In this document: in pieces, positions 13,467 through 38,600 of the stretch
Layout: each line of letters starts with the position of its first letter
Position numbering within the stretch: the first letter of the stretch is position 1
NCBI RefSeq assembly: GCF_009914755.1
Contig: NC_060934.1
Length of the DNA stretch: 64,000 nt
From: the human T2T-CHM13v2.0 reference genome, Homo sapiens
Reading direction: 5' to 3' (one strand)
Position numbers and translations under genes: made by a program
Notes under the pieces: generated by a model
Seen by the model: the letters and a program-made list of their open reading frames with translations, nothing else
What the model was told of the DNA's origin: nothing
Databases searched by the model: none

Positions 13467-14360
13467 GAGCAAATAATGACTTGTGAGCATCTGTAGAGAA
13501 AGTGTGATTACTAGGACACAGACGAGTTTATTCAGAACAAGCCGTTTTTGATTAACTTCGTTTTTTTGTTGTTGGTGGTAAGGTTACTAGATAAAACAAG
13601 TTGTGAGGAGTGACCCTAATAATTGTTACTGGAAATAGCAATTGTGACTGTAGATAGCTTCTCATGAGCAGATTACCAGGAGAACATTACTCAGATCCCC
13701 TCACCCTTTGCAAGCATTTCCTCACTTCATTTGACACTGGACCCCTGCTGGTGACCCTGCTTAGAATTGATTACTTGGAATCAGTTTGGGTCTATGTTAT
13801 GTTCCAAGCTCCTGATGCATTACTCATGACTAACACTGCTTCTCCCCTCCCACTTTTCTTTTGGCTTCTGCATTTGTAACTGTCAAGAACCCTTCCAGTT
13901 TTGAAGACTGCTATGTCTTCCAGTCTCTGCTGAGGATGGCATCAGTTGTAAGTTTTTACATAAACATGACAAGTACCTTGAATATATAAATAGACAAGGG
14001 CGGGTTCCTGAGAAGGGAGTAAAGTGGCCATGGATCTAGGGATGCAGGGCAGGAGTGGAAATGAGTAGGCAGCAGAGCCAAGCTTCATCAGTGAAAGGAC
14101 AAGTGATGTATTTTTTTTTTTAATTTTATTTATTTATTTATTTATTTATTTATTTATTATACTTTAAGTTTTAGGGTACATGTGCACATTGTGCAGGTTA
14201 GTTACATATGTATACATGTGCCATGCTGGTGCGCTGCACACACTAACTCATCATCTAGCATTAGGTATATCTCCCAGTGCTATCCCTCCCCCCTCCCCCC
14301 ACCCCACGACAGTCCCCAGAGTGTGATATTCCCCTTCCTGTGTCCATGTGATCTCATTGT

Positions 14361-35640: not shown

Positions 35641-38600
35641 CTTTGTGGTTTTGTCTACTTTTGGTCTTTGATGATGGTGATGTACAGATGGGTTTTTGGT
35701 GTGGATGTCCTTTCTGTTTGTTAGTTTTCCTTCTAACAGACAGCACCCTCAGCGGCAGGTCTGTTGGAGTACCTGGCCGTGTGAGGTGTCAGTGTGCCCC
35801 TGCTGGGGGGTGCCTCCCCGTTAGGCTGCTCAGGGGTCAGCGGTCAGGGAATCACTTGAGGAGGCAGTCTGTCCGTTCTCAGATCTCCAGCTGCGTGCTG
35901 GGAGAACCACTGCTCTCTTCAAAGCTGTCAGACAGGGACATTTAAGTCTGCAGAGGTTACTGGTGTCTTTTTGTTTTTCTGTGCCCTGCCCCCAGAGGTG
36001 GAGCCTACAGAGGCAGGCAGGCCTCCTTGAGCTGTGGTGGGCTCCACCCCATTCGAGCTTCCCTGCTGTTTTGTTTACCTAAGCAAGCCTGGGCAATGGT
36101 GGGCACCCCTCCCCTAGCCTCGCTGCCACCTTGCAATTTGATCTCAGACTGCTGTGCTAGCAATCAGTGAGACTCCGTGGGCGTAGGACCCTCTGAGCCA
36201 GGTGCAGGGTATAATCTCCTGGTGCGCTGTATTTTAAGCCCGTCAGAAAAGCGCAGTGTTCAGATGGGAGTGACCCGATTTTCCAGGTGCCGTCTGTCAC
36301 CCCTTTCTTTGACTAGGAAAGGGAACTCCTGACCCCTTGCGCTTCCCGAGTGAGGCAATGCCTCGCCCTGCTTCGGCTCACGCACGGTGTATGCACCCAC
36401 TGACCTGCGCCCACTGTCTGGCACTCCCTAGTGAGATGAACCCGGTACCTCAGACGGAAATGCAGAAATCACCCGTCTTCTGCGTCGCTCATGCTGGGAG
36501 CTGTAGACAGGAGCTGTTCCTATTCGGCCATCTTGGCTCCTCCTCCAAACTCATGTGGTCATTTGTTTTTTCTTGTTGAGTTGTTTGAGTTCTTATAGAT
36601 TCTGGATGTTACTCCTTTGCCAGAGGGATACTTTGTAAATATTGTCTCCCATTCCGTAGGTCATTTGTTTATTCTGTTGTTTATGTCTTTTGCTGTGCAG
36701 AAGCGTTTTAGTTTAATTAGTCTTGTTTACCTATTTTTGGTTTTGTTGTATTTGTTTTTGGGGTCTTCATCATAAATTCTTTGCCTAGATTGATATCTGG
36801 AAGAGTTTTTCCTAGGTTTTGTTCTAGAATTTTTATAGTTGCAGGTCTTACATTTAGGTCTTTAATCCATCCTGAGTTAATTCTCATATATGATGAGAGA
36901 TAGGGGTCCAGTTTCATTTTTCTGCATATAGCTAGTCAGTTATCCCACACCAATTTATTGAATACAGTGTCGTTTCCCCATTGTTTATTTTTGTCCATTT
37001 TATTAGAAGATCAATTGATTGTAAGTATGCAGCTTTATTACTGGGGTCTTTATTTTGTTCCATTGATCTATGTGTATATTTTTGCACCAGTAACTTGCTG
37101 TTTTAGTTACTATAGTCTTGTGTTATAATTTGAAGTCAGGCAATGTGATGCCTCCAGATTTGTTCTTTATGCCTTTAAGTGCTTTGGATATTTGGGCTTT
37201 TTATTGGTTCCATAACAACTTTAGGATTTTTTTCTAATTCTGTATGAAAAGACTGGTAATTTGATAGGAATAGCATTTAATCTGTAGATCACTTTGGGCA
37301 GTATGACCATTTTAACAATATTGATTCTTCCAATCTATGACAATGAGATGTTTTCCCATTTGTTTGTGTCATCTATGATTTATTTCTTTCTCTTGTCTCA
37401 TTTCTCTGGCTAGGACTTCCAGTACTATGAGTATTGAAGTAGTGAGAGTGGACATTTCTCTTGTTCCTGTTCTTAGGGGAAATGTTTTCACTTTTTTTTT
37501 TCATTCAGCCTGATGTTGGTTGTGGATTTGTCATATATGGGTCTTATTATTTGAGGTATGTTCCTGTGATGCCTAGTTTGTTGAGGGTTTTTATGATGAA
37601 GGGATGTTGGATTTTGTTGAATGGTTTTTTTTTCATCTATTGAGATGATCATGTGATTTTTGTTCTTAGTTCTGTCTGCGTAGCAGATCGTTAATTTGCA
37701 CATGCAGAACCATCCTTGTATCCCTGGAATTAAGCACACTTGATTATGGAGAATTATCTTTTTGATATGCTGTTGGATTCAGTTTGCTAGTATTTTGCTG
37801 AGGATTTTTGCATCTGTGTTCATTAGGCATACTGGCTTGTTGTTTTCTTTTTTTGTTGTGTTCTTGCCAGATTTTGGTATCAGGGTGTCACTGGGTAGAA
37901 AGATTTAGGGAGGAATCCATCCTGTTTGATTTGTTGGAATACTTTCAGTAAGATTGGTGCCAGCTGTTCTTTGTATATCTGGTAAAATTTTGGCTGTGAA
38001 TCCATCTGGTCCTGGGATTTTTAAGGGGGATTTAAAAAAATTAATGATTTAATTTCATTATTTATTATTGGTCTGTTCAGGACTTTTGTTTTTTCCTGGT
38101 TCCATCTTGGGAAGTTACACGTTTCAAGGATTTTTTTTCACTTCTTCTAGATTTTCTAGTTTTTGAGTATAGAGGTGTTCATAATAGTCTCTGATGATCT
38201 GTGTTTTTCTGGTGTCAGTTGTGATGTCATCTTTATCATTCCTGATTGTACTTATTTAAATTGTTCCTTTTTTTTTTTTTTTGAGAGGGATTAGTCTAGC
38301 TAGTGGTCTGTCAATTTTGCCTATTCTTTGGAAGAACCAATATTTCATTTTGTTAATTCTTTATATCATTTTTTTGTTTCAATTTCATTTAGCTTTGCTC
38401 TGATCTTTGTTATTTATTTTCTTCTGCTACTTTTGGGTTTTGTTCTTGTTTTTCTACTTCTTTAGGTGTGATTGTTAATTTGAGATTTTTCTGTCTTTTT
38501 GGTGTAGGCATTTAATGCCATAAACTTTCCTCTTAGCATTTTTTTTTGCTGAATACCAGAGGTTTTAGCATGTTGCATCTCTATTTTCACTCATTTCAAA

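What the first reader, a model, noticed from the sequence alone, without database searches (positions are those of the whole stretch)
14113..36546. Two independently inserted full-length L1s share the same ORF2-killing lesions
Seen: the elements have different TSDs and flanks. Both nevertheless carry the same 1-nt deletion giving ...MQIKPQ* (14867-14869 and 31062-31064) and the same TGG>TAG in the CWRGC knuckle (14796-14798 and 30991-30993); the + copy has neither. They also share SEFPF, KVICRF, KLVP, KTMKT, DKELI, RLTGV and TPTHI. They differ elsewhere: GSEI/GAEI, DTIK/DAIK, KDTQ/KDIQ, RAKDK/RTKDK and 5'UTR blocks. Known: L1 retrotransposes mainly in cis and needs the ORF2 C-terminal region. 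Inference: patchy non-allelic gene conversion between neighbours about 16 kb apart. Alternatives are a trans-mobilised defective lineage or assembly/polishing cross-talk.
Basis: partly seen in the sequence, partly recalled or inferred. Interest (0 to 1): 0.7.

Follow-up and report, generated by a model that had tools for sequence, protein, structure and literature searches.

The report
Neighbouring LINE-1 copies overwrote each other
Two separately inserted, broken LINE-1 jumping-gene copies 16 kb apart on human chromosome 10 share the same rare mutations in patches, likely because one overwrote stretches of the other by gene conversion, a known process seen here in a clear example.

Summary
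Observation confirmed. Copies A (14113-20165) and B (30343-36546) have different target-site duplications yet share the ORF2 frameshift, the TAG and 19 of 68 other rare alleles (unlinked copies: 34 of 1090). Genome-wide, both lesions occur in 3 of 11,040 exact-pattern matches: A, B and one distant chr14 copy (0.9 expected by chance). An ORF1 haplotype occurs only in A and B. Identity is patchy: 13/1800 mismatches in the ORF2 tract against 57/1184 next to it (chi-square p 1e-9; 12 control pairs homogeneous). Outside the tracts B carries older-type alleles and a private nested NLRP7 retrocopy. Best reading: kilobase-scale non-allelic gene conversion, likely A to B, roughly 2-7 My ago. Corrections: both copies are also broken upstream by private lesions; the TAG lies downstream of the frameshift; the + copy is not a clean outgroup. 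A second neighbour pair on chr2 shows the same kind of tract. Reads and ape orthologues could not be checked. The process is known for Alus and segmental duplications; my searches found no neighbour-pair survey for L1.

The parts
14113..20165 (-). Copy A: full-length L1PA (PA2/PA3 age, label inferred), intact 338-aa ORF1, private ORF2 stop after codon 485; likely main donor
   Evidence: TSD 14099-14112 / 20166-20179
30343..36546 (-). Copy B: full-length L1PA with older-type background, inserted inside an older L1; ORF1 frameshifted, ORF2 in pieces; likely main acceptor
   Evidence: TSD 30333-30342 / 36551-36560
14371..16626 (-). Main shared tract in A (ORF2 RT to C-terminal region); core 14466-16265 has 13/1800 mismatches to B
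30566..32824 (-). Main shared tract in B; ends about 50 bp from the nested insertion
18621..19017 (-). ORF1 shared tract in A (317-bp identical run 18658-18974; haplotype found only in A and B)
34998..35394 (-). ORF1 shared tract in B
18066..18365 (-). ORF1/ORF2 junction near-identical patch (1/298 mismatches; B 34443-34740); part of the sharing here is a 23-copy sub-lineage marker
14867..14869 (-). Shared 1-nt deletion in A (frameshift near ORF2 residue 1107)
31062..31064 (-). Shared 1-nt deletion in B
14796..14798 (-). Shared TAG in the cysteine-rich motif of A, downstream of the frameshift
30991..30993 (-). Shared TAG in B
32876..33064 (-). Nested 5'-inverted retrocopy of the NLRP7 mRNA 3' end with poly(A) and its own target-site duplication; in B only
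4156..6865 (+). Copy C: 5'-truncated inverted L1PA lacking both lesions but sharing 4 of 26 A-rare alleles (minor exchange partner, inferred)

Best explanation
Copies A and B are two independent L1 insertions that share rare mutations in patches, likely because homologous repair copied kilobase stretches of one onto the other (non-allelic gene conversion) after both had inserted. Shown: separate TSDs, patchy identity, pair-private alleles, different lineage alleles outside the patches. Inferred: B inserted first (older-type alleles, longer private branch, nested retrocopy 3.7% from its source); A inserted later, 16 kb away in the same orientation, and acquired mutations including the two lesions; breaks in one copy were repaired off the neighbour, in at least two tracts (ORF1 about 0.3-0.9 kb, ORF2 about 1.8-2.2 kb), mostly A to B, about 4 My ago (2-7); the 190-bp nested insertion probably bounded the main tract. 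The lesions are likely neutral passengers, since both copies are also broken upstream.
For: Both lesions in 3 of 11,040 matches, the third a chance copy. ORF1 two-site haplotype in 2 places genome-wide, A and B. B shares 19 of 68 A-rare alleles against 34 of 1090 for unlinked copies. A-B mismatch rate uneven over 17 bins, p 1.2e-9; 12 of 12 control pairs p 0.078 or more. Permutation test: tract 16626-14371, score 118, 0 of 2000 shuffles; best of 27 other pairs 55. A+B clade 100/99 in the tract, 98/97 in ORF1, absent from the best trees of the 5'UTR and the unconverted ORF2 segment. At 9 lineage sites outside tract cores B has the older allele and A the younger; the reverse at 2. Unselected replicate on chr2: different flanks, 22 kb apart, mismatches per 200 bp 24, 13, 10, 3, 1, 0, 1, 13 around a shared deletion.
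Against: AU tests do not reject an A+B clade outside the tracts (p 0.105, 0.232). The permutation test is lax: 2 of 27 control pairs also reached 0 of 300. Some sharing is lineage, not conversion (23 dispersed copies), and the full-length panel is small (6 full-length, 6 5' parts, 29 3' pieces) and chosen by likeness to A or B. Direction is weak: panel copy L005 has an intermediate 3' haplotype like B. No reads, second assembly or ape orthologue was seen. Conversion cannot be told from two offsetting unequal crossovers in one genome.
Confidence: 0.85

Rival explanations
1. The patches were made by offsetting unequal crossovers between A and B (duplication of the 16-kb interval, then deletion at another breakpoint), or by recombination with cDNA of an A transcript, not by direct DNA-templated conversion.
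For: Directly oriented L1 pairs are common NAHR substrates (PMC4344489, abstract). A keeps its 5'UTR and ORF1 and overlaps an annotated enhancer (hub note). cDNA-mediated conversion is described for yeast elements (PMC6598467).
Against: Several separate patches would need many crossover rounds; inverted copy C also shares rare alleles (4 of 26, p 2e-4), which crossover between direct repeats does not give; cDNA would not favour neighbours, yet the haplotypes are confined to them.
Confidence: 0.08
2. A and B are sister or mother-daughter insertions from one defective L1 mobilised in trans.
For: Both belong at least partly to a minor sub-lineage (23 copies); the A+B clade is not rejected outside the tracts; trans-complementation exists at low levels (PMC5860796, passages).
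Against: A common source predicts even divergence and dispersed siblings; divergence is uneven and no sibling carries the haplotypes. B has older lineage alleles at 9 sites and a 7-bp 5'UTR block that A and its four closest relatives lack.
Confidence: 0.03
3. Assembly or polishing cross-talk copied bases between the two repeats.
For: Near-identical repeats are where such errors occur (general knowledge); reads were not available here.
Against: The tracts are not identical: 13 differences are scattered through 1800 bp and the longest identical run is 317 bp; each copy has unique flanks; the same pattern shows at an unrelated chr2 pair.
Confidence: 0.03
4. The lesions recurred independently at mutable sites.
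For: The TAG alone recurs in 254 copies, the deletion alone in 37, both in one unlinked copy.
Against: It cannot account for 19 further rare shared alleles (binomial p 2e-13) or for the patches.
Confidence: 0.01

Closest known systems
Non-allelic gene conversion between neighbouring Alu elements (reviewed in PMC6598467 and PMC8230782)
   Same: Neighbouring retroelement copies share non-diagnostic mutations and show mosaics of subfamily-diagnostic alleles; younger copies tend to be donors.
   Different: Here the repeats are 6-kb L1s, the tracts are 0.3-2.2 kb and the distance is 16 kb, beyond the roughly 10-kb range quoted for Alus.
Interlocus gene conversion in human segmental duplications (PMC10172114)
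   Same: Kilobase tracts copied between paralogues on one chromosome (passages).
   Different: The substrates here are independent insertions about 95% alike with unrelated flanks, not a duplicated block.
LINE-LINE non-allelic homologous recombination (PMC4344489, PMC9675761, PMC5829575)
   Same: Directly oriented young L1PA pairs over 4 kb long and about 95% alike recombine; one conversion beside an L1PA7-flanked inversion is described.
   Different: Those studies score the crossover products (deletions, duplications, inversions); this is the copy-neutral outcome.
Recombinant full-length L1s in pangenome assemblies (PMC13192797)
   Same: 35 of 2,267 young L1 loci were called recombinant mosaics (passages).
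   Different: In the passages I saw they were filtered out, with donors defined as phylogenetic groups, not as physical neighbours.

Membership tests
Non-allelic gene conversion between TE copies | Copies are independent loci, not one duplicated block | tested here: met
   Different TSDs and flanks; homology stops at the element ends
Non-allelic gene conversion between TE copies | Shared derived alleles that are rare or absent elsewhere in the family | tested here: met
Non-allelic gene conversion between TE copies | Tract structure: local excess identity with divergent flanks | tested here: met
Non-allelic gene conversion between TE copies | Tree incongruence between tract and non-tract segments | tested here: inconclusive
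   Clade in tracts (100/99, 98/97), absent outside but not rejected by AU
Non-allelic gene conversion between TE copies | Non-reciprocal transfer shown by orthologues or by alleles without the tract | not testable with these tools
   No ape genome or second human assembly is held
Young primate L1PA (L1PA3 after the 129-bp deletion, or L1PA2) | About 6 kb, 5'UTR-ORF1-ORF2-3'UTR-poly(A), TSD | tested here: met
Young primate L1PA (L1PA3 after the 129-bp deletion, or L1PA2) | Lack of the 129-bp ZNF93-bound 5'UTR block | tested here: met
   A chr18 hit has about 128 extra bases at query 762-772; B is colinear with A there; the deletion is described in PMC7110667
Young primate L1PA (L1PA3 after the 129-bp deletion, or L1PA2) | Subfamily-diagnostic sites against curated consensus sequences | not testable with these tools
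   No Dfam or RepeatMasker library here; PA2 versus PA3 labels are inferred
Trans-mobilised defective L1 lineage | Dispersed siblings with the same lesions and even divergence | tested here: not met

The most novel reading that the evidence does not exclude
Young L1 copies within about 25 kb of each other undergo routine kilobase-scale concerted evolution across the human genome, in both orientations, so that neighbours pass on inactivating and other mutations, and L1 ages, subfamily calls and 'recombinant L1' calls are systematically shaped by the nearest copy. Among the rarest variant classes listed in full, 3 unselected near pairs were seen where at most about 0.06 were expected.
Probability: 0.55. 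Interest if true: 0.5.

Novelty: new member of a known kind. Interest (0 to 1): 0.32.

Why it matters
For this locus little: two dead L1s in an intergenic region. As a marker of process it is useful: shared rare lesions between neighbouring L1s record the copy-neutral outcome of L1-L1 recombination, whose crossover outcome causes deletions and duplications. It gives a simple genome-wide assay (rare-allele sharing against distance and orientation) for tract length and rate, and warns that divergence dating and subfamily calls of clustered L1s can be biased.

Tried and rejected
Sub-lineage check: the ORF1/ORF2-junction haplotype first looked pair-private but is in 23 dispersed copies; six were fetched and used to strip lineage markers. 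The chr14 double carrier is not a sibling (4.57% from A). C as a clean outgroup: rejected. Donor for A's private cluster at 16677-16730: none found, best other hit 95% among 40 scored of 1070 candidates. Near-pair excess in the TAG-only class: not seen (1 pair within 25 kb among the first 100 of 254 listed, 0.69 expected on the generous null). Of three neighbour pairs fetched, one shows a clear tract (chr2), one a 112-bp identical run that is the longest in 912 bp (chr6 inverted pair) and one nothing clear (chr6 direct pair, 51-bp run); the search pattern itself forces 29 bp of identity. AU tests outside tracts were not significant. No whole-genome scan of all L1 pairs could be run. One cited paper (PMC5715747) was not held. 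Supplements were not read; those of PMC13192797 might list recombinant loci, though copies this old may fall outside its set.

Full report
Observation. The window holds three young L1s: A (14113-20165, minus), B (30343-36546, minus) and a 5'-truncated C (4156-6865, plus). Each has its own target-site duplication (14, 10 and 13 bp; read), and B sits inside an older L1, so they are separate insertions. The 1-nt deletion and the TAG are at the stated coordinates in A and B and absent from C. All 7 shared and all 4 differing peptide claims were reproduced. Against solved ORF2p, the frameshift falls at about residue 1107 of 1275; the TAG lies further downstream and out of frame after it. A also has a private stop after ORF2 codon 485 with an intact 338-aa ORF1, and B has a frameshifted ORF1 and a fragmented ORF2. 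The shared lesions therefore need not be what inactivated either copy; the order of events is unknown.

How rare the sharing is. Exact two-word patterns across the genome gave: neither lesion 10,746, TAG only 254, deletion only 37, both 3. Outside the window 0.88 double carriers are expected by independence; the one seen, on chr14, is 4.57% from A where B is 0.69% (12/1751). A second haplotype, two ORF1 sites 162 bp apart, occurs in exactly 2 places, A and B. A third, at the ORF1/ORF2 junction, occurs in 23 dispersed copies, so some A/B sharing marks a minor sub-lineage. I fetched 6 of those 21 other copies and 6 5' parts of near relatives and added them to 29 3' pieces. With this 41-copy panel, B shares 19 of 68 alleles that are rare outside A, against 34 of 1090 for unlinked copies in leave-one-out tests (p 2e-13). 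The two lesions are not in that count, since the 3' panel was picked by likeness to them.

Patchiness. A-B mismatches are 57/895 in the 5'UTR, 0/300 in ORF1 18666-18965, 1/298 at the junction, 57/1184 in ORF2 16566-17765, 13/1800 in ORF2 14466-16265 and 10/300 in the 3'UTR. Over 17 bins outside the 5'UTR the A-B rate is uneven (chi-square 75, p 1.2e-9), while 12 of 12 control pairs are not (p 0.078 or more). A GENECONV-like permutation gives a tract 16626-14371 with score 118 (0 of 2000 shuffles); the best of 27 other pairs scores 55, though two of them also reach 0 of 300, so the test is lax. Trees join A and B at 100/99 in the ORF2 tract and 98/97 in ORF1; in the 5'UTR and unconverted ORF2 they are not joined, but AU tests do not reject joining them (p 0.232, 0.105).

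Different origins, direction and age. At sites that separate A's four closest relatives from two older ones, B has the older allele and A the younger at 9 sites outside the tract cores, the reverse at 2; B keeps a 7-bp 5'UTR block that A and those four lack. Inside the main tract both carry the younger alleles, which points to A as donor; this is weak, as one panel copy has an intermediate 3' haplotype like B. B alone carries a nested insertion at about 32876-33064: two pieces in opposite orientation match one chr19 locus, and one translates to the last 29 residues of NLRP7. It is a 5'-inverted retrocopy, 6 of 162 bases from its source. With a recalled rate of 0.92e-9 per site per year, the tract dates to 3.9 My (2.1-6.7) and the insertion to 20 My (7-44); these are rough. 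The main tract ends about 50 bp from the insertion site, as expected if the heterology blocked it (inference). Both copies lack the 5'UTR block of about 128 bp seen in an older hit, which by PMC7110667 (passages) places them at L1PA3 after the deletion or younger; finer labels were not testable.

Beyond the pair. Inverted copy C shares 4 of 26 A-rare alleles against 7 of 604 background (p 2e-4), so it likely exchanged short tracts too. The genome lists held other close pairs. Among the 38 deletion carriers outside the window, two lie 22 kb apart on chr2; they have different flanks and 24, 13, 10, 3, 1, 0, 1, 13 mismatches per 200 bp around the deletion. Among 34 copies with a rare transversion at the TAG site, two same-variant pairs lie within 7 kb: one has its longest identical run (112 bp) over the variant, the other shows nothing clear. 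Together 3 pairs within 25 kb were seen against 0.057 expected on a null that assumes 0.6 neighbours per copy, where 0.16 was measured on 100 chr1 copies. The commoner TAG-only class showed no excess (1 pair among the first 100 of 254 listed; 0.69 expected).

Mechanism. Shown: independent insertions, pair-private alleles, patches, lineage differences outside them. Inferred: repair of breaks in one copy off its neighbour, in at least two tracts, mostly A to B, probably after the split from chimpanzee. Offsetting unequal crossovers or cDNA templates cannot be excluded from one genome (0.08). A common defective source (0.03) fails on uneven divergence and absent siblings. Polishing cross-talk (0.03) fits poorly with scattered differences and a longest identical run of 317 bp, but reads were not seen.

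What is known. Non-allelic conversion between TE copies, raised between Alus within about 10 kb, is reviewed in PMC6598467 (parts 1-2 of 4 read) and PMC8230782 (passages); conversion in segmental duplications in PMC10172114 (passages); L1-L1 recombination in PMC4344489 (abstract), PMC9675761 (passages) and PMC5829575 (passages); recombinant L1 loci in PMC13192797 (passages); cis preference and the need for ORF2p domains in PMC5860796 (passages). A 1991 paper on L1 gene conversion was seen as a title only (reference list of PMC5640379). Ten searches showed no report of this locus and no survey of conversion between neighbouring L1s; the library lacks most subscription journals and supplements were not read.

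Verdict. Real, and well explained by a known process; a new, clear member with an unselected replicate. Interest 0.32; the wider reading, routine neighbour-driven homogenisation of L1s, has probability about 0.55 and would deserve 0.5.

Noticed in passing
window 32876-33064: 5'-inverted retrocopy of the NLRP7 mRNA 3' end nested in copy B (source G000:C19:58017794-58018108; weaker matches on C23 and C9).
   Followed up: yes
L040/L041 (G000:C2:213829200-213854600): Two L1s 22 kb apart with different flanks share an approximately 800-bp near-identical tract including a rare 1-nt deletion.
   Followed up: partly
L049, L050 (G000:C6:142.06 Mb and 85.85 Mb): Neighbour L1 pairs 6.5 kb (direct) and 5.3 kb (inverted) apart share a rare transversion; short tract possible in the inverted pair.
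   Followed up: partly
G000:C5:100946989 and 101063899; C3:4173665 and 4252269: More distant same-strand pairs (117 kb, 79 kb) sharing rare alleles in the lists; not fetched.
   Followed up: no
window 16677-16730: Cluster of about 6 private substitutions in A, including its ORF2 stop, at the place homologous to B's insertion target; no donor found. Unexplained.
   Followed up: partly
window 18191-18215 and 21 other genome places: Minor L1PA sub-lineage haplotype at the ORF2 start, carried by copies of both younger and older type.
   Followed up: partly
window 19295-20164: The annotated enhancer (hub note) coincides with the 5'UTR of copy A, whose ORF1 is intact; activity not tested.
   Followed up: no
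window 51236-52228: AT-rich minisatellite, period 28-32, about 33 copies.
   Followed up: no
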